From an uncultured Acidobacteriota bacterium (GTDB lineage Bacteria; Acidobacteriota; Vicinamibacteria; Fen-336), in assembly GCA_963720545.1 (NCBI GenBank), contig OY970399.1:2368001-2432000 (forward strand): DNA of 64,000 bases, given 5' to 3'. Shown here one piece after another: positions 7,110-17,757 of this stretch. The position numbers were made by a program, and so were the translations under genes. The first letter of the stretch is position 1; each line of letters begins with the position of its first letter. Below the pieces are notes generated by a model. That model did not search any database, had not been told where the DNA came from, and saw nothing but the letters and a program-made list of their open reading frames with translations.

Positions 7110-7161
7110 AGACACCGCGGGCAATCGCGTCCTTGCCGCTAAACTGTTGAGTGGCAAGCCA

Positions 7162-8964
7162 ATGTCCGCAACCCCCGATGACGCGCGCGACCTGCGCAGC
7201 GCCGAGATTCCGCTTCGAGGCGAAAAGCACGCCGGATCTTTCCGCGTTTGCGTCATCTACCCGAATCTCTATTTCGTCGGCATGTCGAACCTCGGCTTCC
7301 AGGGTGTGCAGGCTCTCTTCAACGAAGCGCCCGACGTCGTCTGCGAGCGGGCCTTCCTGCCGAGCGACGCCGCGCGCGCGGCGCTCGAGAAGAGCGGCAA
7401 GCCGCTCGCAAGCCTCGAGACCGGCACCGACCTGCGCCGCTTCGACATGCTCGCCTTCTCGATCTCGTTCGAGAACGACTACCTGCACGTGCTGCAGATC
7501 CTGCGCATGGCCGGCATCGCGCTGCGCCCGGAACAGCGCACCGACCGCGACCCCGTCATCGTCTTCGGCGGCGCCGCTGTCTTCCTGAATCCCGAGCCGC
7601 TCGCACCGTTTGCCGACGTCGTTGCCGTAGGCGAGGGCGAGAACCTGGTGCCGAAGCTGATGAACGCCTTCGCCGGCACCTCCAACCGCCAGGCCGCGAT
7701 CGATTCACTGCAGCCGAAGGAAGGCTTCTACATCCCGTCGCGGTACACCGTCTCTTACCACCAAGACGGCACCGTCGCGCGCTATGACGGGCCAGGCACC
7801 GTCATCAGGCAGCGCGCCTGGGCGGGCAAGATGGGCCTGCCGCAGACCACCATCCTCACGCCGCACACCGAGATGTCGATGAAGTTCCTGGTCGAGATCT
7901 CGCGCGGCTGTCCGTGCATGTGCCGCTTCTGCTGGGCGGGCTACAACTACCTGCCGGTGCGCGGCTTCTCGCGCGCCGAGATCGTCGGGCGGGCGAAGGA
8001 AGTGCGCGGCTTCACCAACAAGATCGGCCTGGTCTCGACCGCAGTCTGCGACCATCCCGAGATCAACGACATCGTCGACGACCTCGCGGCCATGGACTAC
8101 GAGGTGTCGGTCGCGTCGCTGCGCCTCGACGACCTCACGCCCGAGTTCGTGTTCAAGCTCGCCGACACAGGGGTGCAGGGACTGACGCTGGCACCCGAGT
8201 GCGGTTCGGACCGCATGCGCAAGATCATCAACAAGCAGTTCACCAACGAGGAGATCCTCGACAAGGCCACCTGGATCTTCGAGAACGGCATCAGGAACCT
8301 GAAGCTCTACTTCATGGTCGGGCTGCCGTTCGAGGAGCATTCGGACGTCGAGGCGATCGTCGACCTGACCGCGCAGATCCGCGAGCGCATGCTCGCCGTC
8401 GGCCGCAAGCGCGGCAGCGTCGGCCGCCTGCACCCCTCGGTCAACCCGTTCGTCCCCAAGCCGGGGACGCCCTATCAGTGGCTGCCCATGGAAGCGCCGA
8501 AGGAGAGCGACCGCAAGCTGCAGTACCTGCGCAAGGCGTTCGGCAAGATGCCGAACGTGAACGCGATCTGCAAGAGCGTCCGTTCCGGTGTGCACCAGTC
8601 GATCCTGGCGCTCGCCGACCGCCGCGTCGCCGACGCCCTCGAGATGGCGGTTGTCGAGGGCATCGACCTGAAGCGCGCGATGAAGGAACTGGGCCTCGAC
8701 CCGGCTTTCTACCTGTTCCGCGAACGCTCAAAGGACGAGATCCTGCCCTGGGACATCATCGACAACGGCGTCGCCAAGTCTTACTACTGGAGGGAACTCG
8801 AGCGCAGCCGCGCCGAGCGCCTCTCGCCGCACTGCCCCGAAATCCAGGGCTGCATCCGCTGCGGCGTCTGCGTCGAAACGCCGAACCCGTCCTACAAATT
8901 GCCGGACAAGTGGAAGGAACTGGGCACGTCGCCTCGCTACCTGCGAATGGCGCCGACAGCCTGA
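7162..8964 (+). CDS. Radical SAM protein with B12-binding-like N-terminus (TIGR03960-like)
   Basis: VGMSNLGF, EISRGCPCMCRFC (CxxxCxxC), TLAPE, LYFMVGLP, PFVPKPGTP, LPWD, C-terminal CxxCGVC. Confidence 0.88.
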   Translation: MSATPDDARDLRSAEIPLRGEKHAGSFRVCVIYPNLYFVGMSNLGFQGVQALFNEAPDVVCERAFLPSDAARAALEKSGKPLASLETGTDLRRFDMLAFSISFENDYLHVLQILRMAGIALRPEQRTDRDPVIVFGGAAVFLNPEPLAPFADVVAVGEGENLVPKLMNAFAGTSNRQAAIDSLQPKEGFYIPSRYTVSYHQDGTVARYDGPGTVIRQRAWAGKMGLPQTTILTPHTEMSMKFLVEISRGCPCMCRFCWAGYNYLPVRGFSRAEIVGRAKEVRGFTNKIGLVSTAVCDHPEINDIVDDLAAMDYEVSVASLRLDDLTPEFVFKLADTGVQGLTLAPECGSDRMRKIINKQFTNEEILDKATWIFENGIRNLKLYFMVGLPFEEHSDVEAIVDLTAQIRERMLAVGRKRGSVGRLHPSVNPFVPKPGTPYQWLPMEAPKESDRKLQYLRKAFGKMPNVNAICKSVRSGVHQSILALADRRVADALEMAVVEGIDLKRAMKELGLDPAFYLFRERSKDEILPWDIIDNGVAKSYYWRELERSRAERLSPHCPEIQGCIRCGVCVETPNPSYKLPDKWKELGTSPRYLRMAPTA

Positions 8965-12178: not shown

Positions 12179-12549
12179 GTCTGGTCGCCGCCAAGGAGCA
12201 GGACCAGCGCCGCCGCGTGGCGGCGCGAGTGCGTGAGGCTCACGATCGGCCGGCCGCCGAGGCGCTCGAGCGCCGCGCGCGCCGCACCGTGCATCTGCAG
12301 CTGCGGGGCGCGGCCTGGCTGGCGCACCACCTCGATCTCGAGCAGCGACTGTCCCGCGCCGAGCAGGCTGGTGGCGGCGAGCTTGGCGGCATACCGCGCG
12401 GCCAGCCGGCGAGCCGGGTCGCTCTTGGCGTGGGCGAAATCCCACTCGCCCGCGGTGAACACTTCGCGGCCACGCCCGGCGGCGAGGATCGCCTCGACCG
12501 CCGCGATGGCGACGATCTCGAGCGCGCGGCGCATCCCCGGTGCGGACAT
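12175..12549 (-). CDS. AcpS-like 4'-phosphopantetheinyl transferase, atypical active site
   Basis: FTAGE, LAARYAAK, EIEV...GRAP, VSLTHS...AAALV; 124 aa. Confidence 0.75.
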   Translation of the reverse strand: MSAPGMRRALEIVAIAAVEAILAAGRGREVFTAGEWDFAHAKSDPARRLAARYAAKLAATSLLGAGQSLLEIEVVRQPGRAPQLQMHGAARAALERLGGRPIVSLTHSRRHAAALVLLLGGDQT

Positions 12550-12588
12550 GGCGAGAGTGTACTAGGCGGATCGCGTACGATCGTGCTG

Positions 12589-13287
12589 GTGAGAAACTCG
12601 CGGCGGCGCATCGCGGCATTCGATGCCGTGCCCGGCCTGGTCCACGGATTCGACCCCGGCGGCCATCCCATTCCAGCGAGCCGTGACGAGGAGCGCACGC
12701 GGCTCGCAGCGCGGCTGCTGCCGCACGGCCGGCTCAACCTGCTGGCGCAGGTGCACGGCGCGGTGGTGCAGGATGCACCGTGGGAGGGCCGGCCGCAGGG
12801 CGATGCGTCGTTTGCGGCTCGGCCTGGCGAACTGCTCGGCATCGAATCGGCCGACTGCCAGCCCGTCTTCATCGTCGACGTGCGGGCGGGCCGTGTTGCT
12901 GCGGCGCACGCCGGATGGCGCGGCACGGTGGCGCGGGTGGCGGCGGCGGCTCTGTCACGGCTGGTCGCTGCCGGCTCGGATCCGCGCGACCTCATCGCCG
13001 GCCTCGGCCCGGCGATCGGCGCGTGCTGCTACGAAGTCGGCGACGAGGTGGTGGCTGCGTTCGGCGCCGGCAGCGAGCGCTTCTTTTCGCCGGGGAAGGG
13101 AGAACGCCCCCATCTCGACGTGCGCGCGGCGAACGTGGCGCAGCTCGTCGCCGGCGGCATCGCCGCGGAGCGCATCCATCACATCCTCGACTGCACGCGC
13201 TGCGGCGCCGGCTTTCCTTCCTATCGCCGCGACGGCGGCAGCGCCGGGCGCATCCTCAGCTACGCGGGCTTCGCGCGCCAGGCCTAG
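12589..13287 (+). CDS. pgeF: PgeF/YfiH laccase-domain purine nucleoside phosphorylase
   Basis: QVHG, ADCQPV, AHAGWRG, GPAIGACCYEVG, SYRR; GTG start inferred from TACGAT 7 nt upstream. Confidence 0.9.
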   Translation: MRNSRRRIAAFDAVPGLVHGFDPGGHPIPASRDEERTRLAARLLPHGRLNLLAQVHGAVVQDAPWEGRPQGDASFAARPGELLGIESADCQPVFIVDVRAGRVAAAHAGWRGTVARVAAAALSRLVAAGSDPRDLIAGLGPAIGACCYEVGDEVVAAFGAGSERFFSPGKGERPHLDVRAANVAQLVAGGIAAERIHHILDCTRCGAGFPSYRRDGGSAGRILSYAGFARQA

Positions 13288-13703
13288 GGCTCGGCGCCGT
13301 CCAGCGCCTGGTTCGCGAGCGCGTCCGCTTCCTTGTTCTGTTCGCGCCGCACGTGGCGCAGCGAGGCGCTCTCGAACTGGCGCATCAGGCCCCGGGCCTC
13401 GCGAAACAGCGGCACCATGTTGGGGTGCTTCACCTTGAAGCGCCCCGCCATCTGCTCGACGACCAGCAGCGAGTCGGAGAAGACCGCCACGCGCCGTGCG
13501 CCGTGGTCGAGCGCGTAGCGCAGCGCGTTGATGAGCGCGTGGTACTCGGCAACGTTGTTGGTGGTGTGGCCGAGGCAGCCGCACAGGCCGGCGACGGTGG
13601 TGCCGTCGGGCCGCGCCACGTGCACGCCCCAGGACGCCTTGCCGGGGTTGCCGCGCGAGGCGCCGTCGATGTGGATGCGCAGCTCGGGAGGGGCGGCGGT
13701 CAT
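13284..13703 (-). CDS. rnhA: Ribonuclease HI (archaeal/actinobacterial-like)
   Basis: DGASRGNPG, TNNVAEY, DSLLVVEQ, HVRREQNKEADALAN. Confidence 0.93.
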   Translation of the reverse strand: MTAAPPELRIHIDGASRGNPGKASWGVHVARPDGTTVAGLCGCLGHTTNNVAEYHALINALRYALDHGARRVAVFSDSLLVVEQMAGRFKVKHPNMVPLFREARGLMRQFESASLRHVRREQNKEADALANQALDGAEP

Positions 13704-14449
13704 TTCCCGCTGGTTGCGGGAGCGGCGACCGGCGCGGGCGCTTCGGCTTCTATGTAATAAAGGATGCGGTTGCACGACGGGCACTGCATGACGACGTCGT
13801 CGTGCATCTTGAGGTCGACGAACATCTGCGGCCGCAGCTTCACGCGGCAGGCGCTGCACGCACCGTCCTTGGCCTCGCTGATGCCGCTGCCGCGGTGGCG
13901 GGAGATGCGGGTGAAGAGCTCGAGCAGCGACTCGGGCACCGTGGCTGCGGCCGCCGTGCGCTCGCCGCGAAGCGCCGCGGCGCGCTCGCCAAGCGCCCTG
14001 GCCTGGGCGTCGAGCTTCGCGGCCTCGGCCTTGCCCTCGTCCTCATGGCCCTTGAAGGTCGCTTCCTCGGCGCGGACCGCCGCGGCCCGGCTTTCGGCCG
14101 ATTCCATGTCGACGAGGATCTTGTCCTCGACCCCGCGGATCTCGCGCTCGACCCCTTCAATTTCGTGGAGGACGGCCGTGTATTCCTTGTTGGTCTTCAC
14201 GTCCATCAACTGGCCCTTGTACTTGGCCCTCTTGGTCTCGAAATCCTGAAGGCTCGCCTCGAGGGCCCGCCGGCTCTTCTGGCTCTCGGCCAGGGACTCG
14301 CGGGCGGCATCCAGGGCCCGGCGCTCGTCGGCGACGCGCTTTTCAAGCGCCTGCTTTGCCCTGGGAATCTCGGCCAACTGGGCCTCATTGGCCCGCTGGT
14401 CGCTCTCGACACGCTGGAGGAGGACGAGCTTTGCGAGGTCGGCGTTCAT
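13700..14449 (-). CDS. Coiled-coil protein with C4-type zinc ribbon (DUF164/CT398-like)
   Basis: Long coiled coil with NKEY; CSAC...CPSCNRIL; ATGA overlap with rnhA. Confidence 0.9.
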   Translation of the reverse strand: MNADLAKLVLLQRVESDQRANEAQLAEIPRAKQALEKRVADERRALDAARESLAESQKSRRALEASLQDFETKRAKYKGQLMDVKTNKEYTAVLHEIEGVEREIRGVEDKILVDMESAESRAAAVRAEEATFKGHEDEGKAEAAKLDAQARALGERAAALRGERTAAAATVPESLLELFTRISRHRGSGISEAKDGACSACRVKLRPQMFVDLKMHDDVVMQCPSCNRILYYIEAEAPAPVAAPATSGK

Positions 14450-14473: not shown

Positions 14474-14636
14474 CTCGGGGCCGATTTTGCTGTTTTTTGG
14501 AATGGACAGCCGCCTGCGCGGCGTTACAATTTCCGGGCGTTCCGAAAAGCCGTTAGCCGCTCGCCGCGCGTACTCATATGGGAAAGCGGCTGTTGGACGC
14601 TCGTCTTGGGACAGAACCTTAAGGAGTCGATAATCC

Positions 14637-14987
14637 ATGGAACGTCGCGAATTCAGCAAGATCATGGGCGCAGTTGTCGGCGGCATGGTTGCGGGCTCGA
14701 AGTTGGCCCCTTCCGTCTTTGCCGGCGACGAGCATGCGAAGCACACCTGTAAAGGCAAGAACGAATGTAAGGGCCAGGGCGGATGCAAGACTGGCGACGG
14801 CGGATGCGCCGGGAAGAATTCCTGCAAGGGCAAGGGTGGCTGCGCCACGACTGCCAAGCACGATTGCAAGGGCAAGAACGACTGCAAGGGCCAGGGCGGA
14901 TGCTCCACCGGCGACGGCGGCTGCGCCGGCAAGAACTCTTGCAAGGGCAAGGGCGGCTGCGCGGTTCCGGCGAAGAAGAAGGAGTAG
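14637..14987 (+). CDS. Cys/Gly/Lys-rich RiPP precursor with Tat signal (bufferin BufA2-like metallophore candidate)
   Basis: AAGGAG RBS; MERREF twin-Arg motif, hydrophobic stretch, VFA cleavage site; 12 Cys in four CxGKNxCKGxGGC units; directly upstream of DUF692. Confidence 0.88.
   Translation: MERREFSKIMGAVVGGMVAGSKLAPSVFAGDEHAKHTCKGKNECKGQGGCKTGDGGCAGKNSCKGKGGCATTAKHDCKGKNDCKGQGGCSTGDGGCAGKNSCKGKGGCAVPAKKKE
14736..14969 (+). repeat. Two tandem 117-bp (39-aa) repeats in the precursor gene
   Basis: AKHTCKGKNECKGQGGCKTGDGGCAGKNSCKGKGGCATT versus AKHDCKGKNDCKGQGGCSTGDGGCAGKNSCKGKGGCAVP. Confidence 0.92.
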
Positions 14988-15000
14988 TTTCTACACCTTC

Positions 15001-15062
15001 GGCGGAAGGTCGGCGCCGGCGCTCCTCACGGGTGCCGGCCGGGCCTTCCGCCTTTTCTTTTT
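15001..15062 (+). terminator. Intrinsic terminator-like hairpin between precursor and MNIO genes
   Basis: GGCGGAAGG...CCTTCCGCC outer stem, GCCGGCGC/GTGCCGGC inner stem, then TTTTCTTTTT. Confidence 0.75.
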
Positions 15063-15063
15063 C

Positions 15064-15921
15064 ATGACGAATCGCTTCGCCTTTCGCGATCTTGGCGTCG
15101 GCATCGGCCTGCGCACCGCCCATTTCGCGCACATCCTCGCGAAGTGGCCGAAGGTCGACTGGTTCGAGGTTCTCTCGGAGAACTTCATGGACACAGGCGG
15201 CCGCCCCTTGCAGGTGCTCGACGAGGTGGCCGAGCGCTATCCGGTGGTGCTGCACGGCGTCAGCCTCGGCATCGGCAACACCGATCCGCTGAACCGCGAC
15301 TACCTGCGCAAGCTCAAGAACCTGGCCACGCGCACCAGGGCGCATTGGGTCTCCGACCACCTCTGCTGGACCGGCATCCTCGGCCGCAACACCCACGACC
15401 TGCTGCCGATGCCGTATACCGAAGACGCGCTGGCGCACACCACCGAGCGCGCGCGCGCCGTCAGCGACATCCTCGAGCGGCCGCTGGTGCTCGAGAACCC
15501 CTCGTCCTATGTGGAGTTCGCCGGCTCCTCGATGCCGGAGTGGGAATTCCTGGCGCGCCTCGCCGAAGACGCGAACTGCGGGCTGCTCCTCGACGTGAAC
15601 AACGTCTACGTCAGCTCGTTCAACCACCGTTTCGACCCGCGCACCTACATCGACGCGATCCCCGCCGACCGGGTGGTGCAGTACCACCTCGCGGGCCACA
15701 CCAACAAGGGCACGCACATCCTCGACACGCACTCCGATCACGCCGTGCCCGAGGTGTGGGAGCTGTATCGCCGCGCGTGGGCGCGCACCGGCCGCACTTC
15801 GACCCTCTACGAGTGGGACGAGAACATCCCGCAGTTCGACGTGGTCCACCGGGAAGCCCTGAAGGCGCGCGAGTTCCAGACAGCACCCGTGCCGCAAGCC
15901 GCGGACGCCATCACCGCGTGA
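15064..15921 (+). CDS. DUF692 multinuclear non-heme iron oxidative enzyme (MNIO)
   Basis: GIGLR, WFEVLSENF, LHGVSL, SDHLCW, LENPS, LLDVNN, HLAGH, DTH, EWD. Confidence 0.95.
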   Translation: MTNRFAFRDLGVGIGLRTAHFAHILAKWPKVDWFEVLSENFMDTGGRPLQVLDEVAERYPVVLHGVSLGIGNTDPLNRDYLRKLKNLATRTRAHWVSDHLCWTGILGRNTHDLLPMPYTEDALAHTTERARAVSDILERPLVLENPSSYVEFAGSSMPEWEFLARLAEDANCGLLLDVNNVYVSSFNHRFDPRTYIDAIPADRVVQYHLAGHTNKGTHILDTHSDHAVPEVWELYRRAWARTGRTSTLYEWDENIPQFDVVHREALKAREFQTAPVPQAADAITA

Positions 15922-16739
15922 GCGGGGGCGAGGCCCGGGACGGGCAGCCGCGCGCCGCGCTCGCCGATCTCCAGCGCTGGTTCCAGTCGGCCGTGGTTGC
16001 CGCCGAACCGCCGCAGGATGCCGAGGCAGCGCGGGTGATCCTGCCGTCGCCGACGCTGCGCGCCGCGGAACGGCTGGCGATCTATCACGGCATGTACCCG
16101 CTGCGCATGCACGACGCGCTCGCGAGCGACTACCCGGCACTGCAGCATTTCCTCGGCGACCACGGCTTCGAACACTTCGTCGCCGACTACGTGGAGCAGT
16201 TCCCGTCGCGCGCCTACACCCTGAACCGGCTCGGCGACCATGTGCCCGAATTCATCGCCGCATCGAGCACCTTGCAAAAGCGCGACTTCCTCCACGACCT
16301 CGCGCGCCTCGAACTCGCCATCACGGAAGTGTTCGATGCCGAGGAAGTCGCGACCCTCGGCACCGCCGAGATCGAGGCGCTGCCGCCCGAAGCCTGGGAG
16401 TCGGCGCGCCTGCAGGCGGTGCCGGCCTTTCGCCTGCTGGCGCTGCGCTATCCCGTGAACGACTACCTGCAGTCGGTGAAAGACGACAACCACGACCATC
16501 CGAAGACGAAGCGCAAGGACACCTGGGTCGCGATCCATCGCCGCGCCTACTCGATGTACCGTCTCGACCTGGTGCGGCCGGCATACGACCTGCTCAGGGA
16601 CATCACCGGCGGCGCCACGCTCGGCGAGGCGCTCGACCACGCCCTGGCCCGCCGCGGCCGCAACAAGCCGTCGGCCGAAGAACTGTCCGGCTGGTTCCGG
16701 GACTGGGTCGGTGGCGGCATCTTCCGCGCGGCATCGTAG
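15918..16739 (+). CDS. DUF2063 MNIO partner (RiPP-recognition) protein
   Basis: LADLQRWF, RLAIY...L...YP, DLARLE; GTGA overlap with the MNIO gene. Confidence 0.88.
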   Translation: MSGGEARDGQPRAALADLQRWFQSAVVAAEPPQDAEAARVILPSPTLRAAERLAIYHGMYPLRMHDALASDYPALQHFLGDHGFEHFVADYVEQFPSRAYTLNRLGDHVPEFIAASSTLQKRDFLHDLARLELAITEVFDAEEVATLGTAEIEALPPEAWESARLQAVPAFRLLALRYPVNDYLQSVKDDNHDHPKTKRKDTWVAIHRRAYSMYRLDLVRPAYDLLRDITGGATLGEALDHALARRGRNKPSAEELSGWFRDWVGGGIFRAAS

Positions 16740-16785: not shown

Positions 16786-17757
16786 ATGAGGCTCCTTGCC
16801 GCGCTGCTCGTGTCTTCCGGCGTCCTTGCGGCGCCGTTGTTCGCGCAAACCGGCCGCATCCTGGTGTCGCTGCGCGGCGACGGCCGCGTCAGGGTTGTTT
16901 CTCCCGAGGACGGTACCGCGGGTGCGGCTTTCACCGTGGGCGCGGAACCTGGTGAGATCGCGGTGAGCGCCAGCGGGCAGACCGCCTATGTCGCTGTCTC
17001 CGGCACGCCGGACGGGGACGCCGGCGGCACGGTTGCGGTGCTCGACCTGGCGGGGAAGTCGGTGCGTCGCACCTTCGAGCTGGCGGGCTTCACGTCACCG
17101 GGCGGCGTGCGCCTCGACGGTTCCGGCACCACGTTGTTCGTCGCATGCGCGCCGCAAAACGCGCTCCTCGAACTGGACGCGGAGACCGGGACGCTCGAGA
17201 AGTCGTGGAAGACCGACACCGAAGGCGCGGCCTTCGTGGCGGTCACGCCCGACGGCGGCAAGCTGTACGTGCCGCACCTTGCGGGCCGGAAGCTGGTCGG
17301 CATCGACCGCAAGGCGAACAACGTCCGCACGATCCTGTCCGGCGATCCGCTCAGCGATGTGGACCTCTCGCCCGACGGACGCGAGGCCTGGGTGCTCGAT
17401 CACGAGCGGCGCAGCATCCAGGTGATCGCGGCGAAGAGCGACGTGGTGGTGGCCAGCGTCGCTCTCGACGATTCGGCACCGGGCCGCCTGCGGTTTACAC
17501 CGGACGGCAGGCGCGTGGTGGTGGTCCAGGGCCGGCGCGCGGTGCTCATAGACACCGCGGAGCGCAAGATCCTCTCGGCGCTGCAGATGCCGCTGCGCGG
17601 CGCCGCCCTCGCCATCGCCCCCGACGGCAACCACGCGGTGATCGCCAACCAGGACGACGACAGGCTGACGATCGTCGCGCTGGCGGATCCGCTGCGCATC
17701 GTGCGCACGTTCGCGGCACCCGGCAAGACTCCCGCCGGCGTGGCGTGGCTGCGCTAG
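16786..17757 (+). CDS. YncE/YVTN-type beta-propeller protein, exported
   Basis: Signal peptide; repeated xPDG-x3-(Y/W)V blades. Confidence 0.8.
   Translation: MRLLAALLVSSGVLAAPLFAQTGRILVSLRGDGRVRVVSPEDGTAGAAFTVGAEPGEIAVSASGQTAYVAVSGTPDGDAGGTVAVLDLAGKSVRRTFELAGFTSPGGVRLDGSGTTLFVACAPQNALLELDAETGTLEKSWKTDTEGAAFVAVTPDGGKLYVPHLAGRKLVGIDRKANNVRTILSGDPLSDVDLSPDGREAWVLDHERRSIQVIAAKSDVVVASVALDDSAPGRLRFTPDGRRVVVVQGRRAVLIDTAERKILSALQMPLRGAALAIAPDGNHAVIANQDDDRLTIVALADPLRIVRTFAAPGKTPAGVAWLR

What the first reader, a model, noticed from the sequence alone, without database searches (positions are those of the whole stretch)
14637..16739. Compact MNIO RiPP locus: 12-Cys repeat precursor + DUF692 + DUF2063
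Seen: three same-strand genes, a Cys/Gly/Lys-rich precursor with four CxGKNxCKGxGGC units, a DUF692 enzyme with intact-looking His/Asp/Glu motifs and an overlapping DUF2063 partner. Known: DUF692/MNIO enzymes (MbnB, TglH, ChrH, bufferin and HvfB maturases) oxidatively modify Cys in ribosomal peptides, often giving copper-binding products. Inference: a multivalent metal-binding RiPP related to BufA2-type bufferins. No DoxX, ECF sigma/anti-sigma, protease or transporter gene is adjacent. Whether this precursor type is already characterised cannot be judged without a search.
Basis: partly seen in the sequence, partly recalled or inferred. Interest (0 to 1): 0.82.

Follow-up and report, generated by a model that had tools for sequence, protein, structure and literature searches.

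The report
Bufferin-2 operon with twin-arginine signal
Three genes of the known bufferin kind, in which an iron enzyme likely turns the cysteines of a small exported protein into copper-binding rings; the unusual trait is a conserved twin-arginine start that likely sends the protein out by the Tat route instead of the Sec route described for this family.

Summary
The 116-aa, 12-Cys precursor passes the NCBIfam BufA2 cut-off (61.8 vs 60), the enzyme passes BufB (350 vs 310) and the partner passes DUF2063. Leprevost 2024 and Antoine 2025 named this family BUF_6/12Cys: about 10% have 12 Cys, C. vibrioides buf2 has no DoxX, and Buf2 clusters carry no sigma genes. Likely mechanism: BufBC oxidises most Cys to 5-thiooxazoles and the exported product binds periplasmic copper. 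(1) An RRxFxK leader with Tat hallmarks (F in 66 of 66, weaker h-region, basic c-region; TatA/B/C present); the papers searched mention only Sec. (2) A compact Cys spacing (5-5-6-5-5, twice) on its own enzyme branch, whose 6-Cys Sec forms are already in published datasets. (3) A sigma-70-like promoter. (4) A strong hairpin plus U-tract after the precursor. Near-identical precursor pieces occur in soil RNA contigs of four studies. This scan already noted the Tat trait on at least 15 other genomes. Tat export, modification and copper binding are untested.

The parts
14503..14530 (+). Sigma-70-like promoter (TGGACA, 16 nt, TACAAT; 10 of 12)
   Evidence: 2 sites found vs 0.2 in shuffles; CTTGACA occurs in 12 of 67 upstream regions of RR-type precursors vs 0.6 shuffled; the near-identical RNA contigs of two studies begin at 14548 and 14558. 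Function inferred.
14620..14626 (+). Ribosome-binding site of the precursor gene
   Evidence: sequence
14637..14987 (+). bufA2-type precursor, 116 aa, 12 Cys
   Evidence: NF050166 61.8 bits, cut-off 60; only copy in the genome
14637..14723 (+). Predicted twin-arginine signal peptide (residues 1-29): RRxFxK n-region, Gly-rich h-region, Lys in c-region, signal peptidase I site predicted by eye after Ala29
   Evidence: R3/R4 invariant and F6 at least 90% in alignment A1; feature comparison; genome-wide control. The precursor itself has no TIGR01409/PF10518 hit.
14748..14843 (+). 6-Cys domain 1 (Cys38-Cys69), spacing 5-5-6-5-5, preceded by a conserved His
14865..14960 (+). 6-Cys domain 2 (Cys77-Cys108), duplicate of domain 1
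   Evidence: 33 of 39 aa and 92 of 117 nt identical
15001..15062 (+). Strong hairpin (15001-15052) followed by a U-tract, directly before the enzyme's ATG; likely a leaky terminator or mRNA-stabilising stem
   Evidence: -46.1 kcal/mol, z -5.2; hairpins with z < -2 in 44 of 64 GTDB, 15 of 18 relative and 11 of 17 canonical intergenic regions. The tool's terminator scan did not list it.
15064..15921 (+). bufB: MNIO (DUF692) bufferin maturase, 285 aa
   Evidence: NF050167 350 bits, cut-off 310; PF05114 E 6e-106; only MNIO in the genome; nearest solved relative 3BWW
15918..16739 (+). bufC: DUF2063/RRE partner (PME-type 1), 273 aa; 4-nt overlap with bufB suggests translational coupling
   Evidence: PF09836 70 bits, cut-off 27; weak HvfC hit

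Best explanation
This is a three-gene Buf2 bufferin (Cys-Lys captophorin) operon whose enzyme pair likely oxidises most of the precursor's 12 cysteines to 5-thiooxazoles, after which the product is likely exported, probably by Tat, and likely binds copper in the periplasm. Shown here: gene content, family membership, intact enzyme motifs, the duplicated 6-Cys domain, the RRxFxK leader and a Tat machine in the genome. Inferred steps: (1) a sigma-70-type promoter drives the operon and the hairpin/U-tract after bufA keeps precursor mRNA in excess over enzyme mRNA; (2) BufB and BufC form an iron-loaded heterodimer in the cytoplasm; (3) by analogy with C. vibrioides Buf2 (four central Cys each -4 Da, CysI-CysVI disulfide), each domain would gain four thiooxazoles, giving 8 rings plus 2 disulfides, about -36.3 Da on the predicted 87-aa mature core (8416.8 Da); (4) the twin-arginine leader would keep the precursor away from Sec and hand it to Tat after modification, avoiding premature export of a substrate with many sites; (5) signal peptidase I would release a soluble periplasmic product binding more than one Cu ion.
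For: Family cut-offs passed for all three proteins. The A-B-C arrangement is conserved: MNIO in 73 of 80 and partner in 67 of 80 GTDB loci, with several misses at contig ends. Enzyme residues H64, D98, H99, E144, D177, N180, H208, D221, H223, E250 and D252 are invariant in 94 of 94 rows tallied (their roles as Fe ligands are recalled, not from a call). E253 is acidic at the site where 3BWW has Phe, fitting the Cys-Lys specificity site of PMC13097082 (mapping inferred). All characterised MNIO-PME1 systems install 5-thiooxazole and generally bind Cu; C. vibrioides buf2ABC alone protects against copper. For Tat: F at RR+3 in 66 of 66 and K/R at +5 in 57 of 66 RR-type leaders. The h-region is weaker (mean KD 1.93, n=51) than in non-RR members of the same subtype (2.16, n=11) or canonical BufA2 (2.15, n=22). 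A basic c-region residue occurs in 42 of 51 vs 4 of 11 and 1 of 22. Only 19 of 3160 RBS-preceded ORF starts in the genome show such a leader. TatA/B and TatC are present. Pieces of 94-289 nt with 0-1 differences cover only the precursor and its leader in RNA contigs of 4 of 4 laid studies, across a 19.9-kb stretch.
Against: No modification, export or copper binding was tested for this or any GGC-spaced member. The precursor passes NF050166 by only 1.8 bits. It has no Tat-HMM hit itself; only 5 of 50 alignment members hit TIGR01409 weakly (best E 0.027) and 3 of 50 hit PF10518. RR and non-RR leaders share one h-region pattern and interchange on the enzyme tree (7 changes, at least 3 forced; quick tree) with the same 12-Cys core, so Tat is not required for this architecture. 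The homolog searches were biased toward the RR leader because the query contained it, and the sequences are kin, so the p-values overstate. CysVI sits 5 residues after CysV rather than 12-13 as in 24 of 24 canonical precursors, so the disulfide pattern may not carry over. No conserved metal operator or regulator gene was found. The RNA runs were found with this stretch, are contigs only, and may contain DNA.
Confidence: 0.62

Rival explanations
1. Ordinary Sec-exported Buf2 bufferin. The RRxF motif is simply a basic n-region, or part of the site that BufC recognises, and export goes by Sec as described in print.
For: RR and KK leaders are homologous and switch repeatedly. The query has no Tat-HMM hit. 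Antoine et al. report preliminary evidence that the signal peptide is part of the BufBC recognition site. GGC-type 6-Cys precursors of cultured Acidobacteriota and other RefSeq genomes have non-RR leaders in 41 of 41 rows holding the motif searched.
Against: The full RRxFxK consensus, the weaker h-region and the basic c-region all co-occur with RR; a mere basic n-region would not fix Phe at +3 in 66 of 66.
Confidence: 0.25
2. Same chemistry, but a housekeeping copper store or buffer rather than a stress-induced detoxifier: a constitutive sigma-70 promoter keeps a periplasmic Cu reserve for cuproenzymes such as heme-copper oxidases.
For: Sigma-70-like promoter here and TTGACA enrichment in relatives, with no ECF sigma or operator seen. 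The locus is near-core in the lineage: 28 of 36 same-family and 18 of 18 genomes of a sister family. The precursor is seen in RNA contigs of four soil or biocrust studies. Two COX1 genes are in the genome.
Against: No copper-enzyme genes are conserved beside the locus in the 80 loci. The copper status of the RNA samples is unknown. The characterised buf2 is copper-induced and protective.
Confidence: 0.25
3. The compact GGC-spaced core is only partly modified, or all 12 Cys are modified with no disulfide. The product would then be an unstructured, metallothionein-like multivalent binder of soft metals (Cu, Ag, Au, Hg) rather than a folded Buf2 mini-protein.
For: The CysV-to-CysVI segment that carries strand and helix in canonical BufA2 is missing. 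CysI is in a Cys-Lys context here (76 of 86 in the top three contexts) but usually not in canonical members. Two AlphaFold2 runs gave no confident fold (pLDDT 46 and 43).
Against: Low pLDDT is common for Gly/Cys-rich low-complexity sequences, and no canonical control was folded. Published HMMs place GGC-type members inside Buf_6/12Cys.
Confidence: 0.15

Closest known systems
Buf2 bufferin system of Caulobacter vibrioides (bufA2B2C2; BUF_6/12Cys family; NCBIfam NF050166/NF050167) (PMC11626156, bioRxiv 10.1101/2024.03.18.585515, PMC12452194)
   Same: Gene order A-B-C, no DoxX or sigma gene in the cluster, 6-Cys domain with Cys-Lys motifs, N-terminal export signal, curated models passed; 12-Cys duplication described for about 10% of the family.
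   Different: RRxFxK leader instead of a Sec leader; CysV-CysVI spacing 5 instead of the 12-13 seen in canonical Pseudomonadota members (the C. vibrioides sequence itself was not seen); enzyme on a separate branch (support 99); sigma-70-like promoter rather than SigF control.
Cys-Lys group of captophorins (PMC13097082)
   Same: MNIO-PME1 pair, multiple Cys-Lys motifs, acidic residue after the catalytic Asp; GGC-spaced precursors are listed in its Data set S2.
   Different: The 41 rows holding the searched motif carry single-domain-type cores with non-RR leaders. One row found with another motif has a twin-arginine-like leader, without comment. The main text never mentions Tat or signal peptides.
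Oxazolin/HvfA, fontiphorin (EGKCG, Lys-Cys repeats)
   Same: Repeat-rich, multi-Cys, exported MNIO substrates that bind Cu.
   Different: No EGKCG repeat; HvfB model below cut-off (248 vs 360) and HvfC far below (39 vs 142).
Methanobactin (MbnABC), TglH, ChrH, ApyH systems
   Same: DUF692 fold enzyme acting on a ribosomal peptide.
   Different: MbnB, ChrH and ApyH models score far below cut-off and the TglH-like PDB hit is distant; these systems use different partners and chemistry.

Membership tests
Buf2 / BUF_6/12Cys bufferins | Precursor matches the curated BufA2 model | tested here: met
   NF050166 61.8 vs cut-off 60; 50 of 50 alignment members match at E <= 1
Buf2 / BUF_6/12Cys bufferins | 6 or 12 conserved Cys; 12-Cys forms are duplicated 6-Cys domains | tested here: met
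   12 Cys invariant in 86 aligned cores; domains 33 of 39 identical. Spacing differs from canonical members, but a GGC-spaced Koribacter precursor is counted as Buf_6-12Cys in print (linked by the same partner accession).
Buf2 / BUF_6/12Cys bufferins | MNIO of the bufferin cluster directly downstream | tested here: met
   NF050167 350 vs 310
Buf2 / BUF_6/12Cys bufferins | DUF2063 (PME-type 1) partner after the MNIO, order A-B-C | tested here: met
   PF09836 70 vs 27
Buf2 / BUF_6/12Cys bufferins | Cleavable N-terminal export signal | tested here: met
   n/h/c regions visible in the sequence and conserved; no SignalP available, cleavage site by eye
Buf2 / BUF_6/12Cys bufferins | Signal is of the Sec type | tested here: inconclusive
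   Sequence features lean Tat; Tat HMMs do not hit the query; the route needs an experiment
Buf2 / BUF_6/12Cys bufferins | Small folded protein with a CysI-CysVI disulfide | tested here: inconclusive
   AlphaFold2 pLDDT 46 and 43; no canonical control was folded
Captophorins (5-thiooxazole RiPPs) | Cys converted to 5-thiooxazole (-4 Da, about 305 nm) | not testable with these tools
   Inferred from the MNIO-PME1 class and intact motifs
Captophorins (5-thiooxazole RiPPs) | Copper binding, copper induction or protection | not testable with these tools
   No operator or regulator found
Buf1 (DUF2282) bufferins | DUF2282 domain with 4 Cys | tested here: not met
   No PF10048 hit
Oxazolin / Buf_EGKCG | EGKCG repeats and HvfB/HvfC models | tested here: not met
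   Sequence; models below cut-off
Tat substrates | RRxFLK-type motif, weakly hydrophobic h-region, basic c-region (hallmarks recalled from general knowledge), Tat machine in the host | tested here: met
   meeting the pattern does not show Tat use

The most novel reading that the evidence does not exclude
A large, mostly uncultured branch of Buf2 bufferins (Vicinamibacteria, Bryobacteraceae, Steroidobacteraceae, some Planctomycetota) has repeatedly switched to Tat export. These would be natively Tat-exported RiPPs in which the translocase waits for, or proofreads, complete multi-site thiooxazole formation, and possibly carries copper already bound in the cytoplasm out of the cell.
Probability: 0.3. 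Interest if true: 0.65.

Novelty: new variant of a known kind. Interest (0 to 1): 0.35.

Why it matters
The locus itself is one of tens of thousands of captophorin clusters. What could matter is the export route. Antoine et al. name as an open problem how a signal-bearing precursor avoids Sec export before it is modified. Natural RR and KK versions of nearly the same 12-Cys core give a direct test of whether Tat routing solves this. If true, abundant soil Acidobacteriota would use an overlooked Tat-dependent copper-handling peptide, which surveys filtered for Sec signals or limited to cultured genomes would under-count.

Tried and rejected
Structure: two AlphaFold2 jobs (full precursor with 50 rows; mature core with 86 rows) gave pLDDT 46 and 43, so no fold search was run. 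No PDB sequence relative was found for the precursor or the partner. No plasmid match. The downstream beta-propeller gene (16786-17757) was rejected as part of the system: the genes after bufC differ across the 55 loci with a listed downstream ORF, and no neighbour family recurs in more than 9 of 80 loci. The nearby PF02578 'laccase' label is PgeF/YfiH, not a copper-oxidase partner. No conserved metal-regulator operator appeared in a k-mer scan of 67 upstream regions; only a -35 box was enriched. Homologs of one DoxX were found in 4 of 80 loci (one query only, so others could be missed). Lack of near-identical RNA cover over bufB/bufC is not taken as evidence of lower expression, since contigs cannot rank genes. 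The careful tree did not finish; the quick tree was used. The lipoprotein label for RR-type rows is inflated by core Cys residues and was not used.

Full report
Observation. The three genes are real and lie as described: precursor 14637-14987, MNIO 15064-15921 and DUF2063 partner 15918-16739, with a 4-nt stop/start overlap between the last two. The precursor has 12 Cys spaced 5-5-6-5-5-7-5-5-6-5-5, that is two copies of a 6-Cys domain (33 of 39 aa identical). Its four CxGxNxCKG units are the only ones in the six-frame genome. The genome holds one MNIO and one BufA2. The enzyme tree places the host among Vicinamibacteria (Acidobacteriota) sequences.

Family. All three proteins pass curated cut-offs: NF050166 BufA2 61.8/60, NF050167 BufB 350/310, PF09836 70/27. 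HvfB, ApyH, MbnB and ChrH models fall below theirs. Antoine et al. 2025 (PMC12452194; read parts 2-4 of 8, the Discussion, passages and rows of the genome table; the supplementary PDF with alignments was too large to read and may bear on the Tat claim) state that Buf2 precursors have 6 Cys in 90% of cases and 12 in the rest as duplicated domains, that 16% are lipoproteins, and that sigma/anti-sigma genes are absent from Buf2 clusters. Leprevost et al. 2024 (bioRxiv 10.1101/2024.03.18.585515, passages and part 2 of 4; PMC11626156, passages) show that C. vibrioides buf2 has no DoxX, is Cu-induced and protective, and yields a -18 Da product with four modified central Cys and a CysI-CysVI disulfide. 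The ring structure was solved for Buf1, not Buf2. The captophorin paper (PMC13097082; passages, section 14, Data set S2 rows; its PDF supplement was not held) groups these as Cys-Lys precursors and finds 5-thiooxazole in all characterised MNIO-PME1 systems. Waschulin et al. (PMC8692599, passages) first noted six-Cys precursors beside DUF692/DUF2063.

Subtype. The query had 5847 hits among 7998 scored candidates, of which 120 were listed. A GTDB scan estimated about 3500 matching stretches and returned 80 loci from Acidobacteriota, Planctomycetota, Steroidobacteraceae/Woeseiaceae and a few others. An MNIO lay in 73 of 80 and a partner in 67 of 80. No other neighbour is general; DoxX homologs were seen in 4 of 80. 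The precursor is present in 28 of 36 same-family genomes and 18 of 18 genomes of a sister family. As a control I took the 21 loci over the NF050166 cut-off from 401 Pseudomonadota genomes and dropped the 9 fetched loci below it. Their 24 precursors all have CysV-CysVI spacing 12-13, one of them duplicated; 23 have non-RR leaders. MNIOs of the compact GGC-spaced type sit on a branch apart from the canonical ones (support 99; one exception, L077; quick tree of 101 rows), and gammaproteobacterial GGC members go with them, so the split is not only taxonomic. The compact domain is in published datasets: 41 rows of Data set S2 hold the motif searched, none with an RRxF leader, and the Koribacter member is counted as Buf_6-12Cys.

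Twin-arginine leader. The precursor begins with an RRxFxK motif, a Gly-rich h-region, a c-region Lys and a likely cleavage site after Ala29. RRx[FLVI] occurs before the core in 117 of 120 listed homologs and in 30 of 30 relative loci including our own; both searches favour it because the query holds the leader. In the GTDB set, found with core-only patterns but ranked against the whole query, 42 of 76 scored loci were called RR automatically. Two more (L030, L041) are RR by eye, four have uncertain starts, the remaining 28 have Sec or lipoprotein leaders, and 4 loci were unscored. After dropping six mis-called starts and one spurious ORF, RR leaders have Phe at +3 in 66 of 66 and Lys/Arg at +5 in 57 of 66. 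They also have a weaker h-region (1.93 vs 2.16 and 2.15) and a basic c-region in 42 of 51 vs 4 of 11 and 1 of 22. These are the textbook Tat hallmarks (recalled); kinship inflates the statistics. Only 19 of 3160 RBS-preceded starts in the genome show this pattern, and tatA/B and tatC are present. Against: the query has no Tat-HMM hit and only 5 of 50 and 3 of 50 relatives hit weakly. RR and non-RR leaders interchange on the tree (7 changes, at least 3 forced) with the same core, so Tat is optional for this architecture. I put Tat use at about 0.65. Not found in print: 'Tat' has 0 occurrences in the main texts of the five papers read. Library searches for MNIO + twin-arginine, thiooxazole + Tat + signal peptide, twin-arginine + RiPP + precursor peptide, and bufferin + export gave nothing relevant by their listings; subscription journals are not covered. 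One twin-arginine-like precursor stands uncommented in Data set S2.

Enzyme. Eleven His/Asp/Glu/Asn positions are invariant in the 94 rows tallied; calling them iron ligands rests on recall of MbnB/TglH structures. D252-E253 aligns with Asp-Phe of 3BWW. This fits the catalytic Asp followed by an acidic residue reported for Cys-Lys MNIOs, though the site is Ala in 15 of 51 RR-type enzymes.

Regulation and expression. A sigma-70-like promoter lies at 14503-14530 and CTTGACA is enriched upstream of relatives (12 of 67 vs 0.6); no operator was seen. A -46 kcal/mol hairpin (z -5.2) with a U-tract separates bufA from bufB. Hairpins with z < -2 occur in 44 of 64, 15 of 18 and 11 of 17 intergenic regions, canonical ones included, so this is a family-wide trait. 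One 178-nt piece with 4 differences covers the bufB/bufC junction; other listed hits are under about 40 nt. This is a hint of transcription in soil or biocrust, not a measure of level, since the runs were found with this stretch.

Mechanism. Most likely BufBC converts about eight Cys to 5-thiooxazoles in the cytoplasm, the leader routes the modified precursor through Tat, signal peptidase releases an 87-aa basic product, and this binds several Cu ions in the periplasm. Every chemical and transport step is inferred. The rivals are Sec export, a constitutive copper-store role, and a non-canonical modification pattern or fold; two structure predictions were uninformative.

Earlier notes of this scan. 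After forming my reading I found 17 notes in at least 15 other genomes reporting the same Tat-type Buf2 trait. They are not independent support. One led me to the captophorin paper, which I then read.

Verdict. A genuine member of a known, well-described class, with one unpublished (as far as searched) but already repeatedly noted variant trait. New variant of a known kind; interest 0.35.

Noticed in passing
window 12217-14449: Divergent housekeeping neighbours: PgeF/YfiH, RNase HI and a CT398-like zinc-ribbon protein; the same block lies upstream of the precursor in 8 of 80 loci, marking a fixed chromosomal site in one Vicinamibacteria lineage.
   Followed up: partly
window 16786-17757: YVTN-type beta-propeller protein with a signal-like N-terminus, 46 bp after bufC on the same strand; not conserved beside the locus in relatives.
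   Followed up: partly
L019:4333-4803, L021:2438-2782, L049:2809-3426: A second MNIO cluster with a 7-Cys, canonical-spaced precursor lies directly upstream of the GGC-type cluster, so two Buf2 subtypes stand in tandem.
   Followed up: no
L022, L031, L040, L064, L071: Two precursor genes per locus, with 6-12 Cys each; L040, L071 and L080 carry twin-arginine plus lipobox leaders.
   Followed up: partly
L075:4737-5375, P0002, L015: Expanded precursors with 16-18 Cys (three domains or extra half-domains).
   Followed up: no
G038-G055 (family f3); L009, L030: Genomes of the sister family give 2-4 precursor matches each (some are split hits), and some GTDB loci have a precursor with no adjacent MNIO, suggesting modification in trans.
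   Followed up: no
L023:4165-4920, L048:4155-4688, L067:4177-4755: DoxX gene placed upstream of the precursor rather than after bufC.
   Followed up: no
window 14742-14744 and 14859-14861: A His two residues before the first Cys of each domain is at least 90% conserved; a candidate extra metal ligand.
   Followed up: no
window 7147-8964: B12-binding radical SAM protein (TIGR03960-like, below cut-off), about 5.7 kb upstream; no sign of a link to the locus.
   Followed up: no
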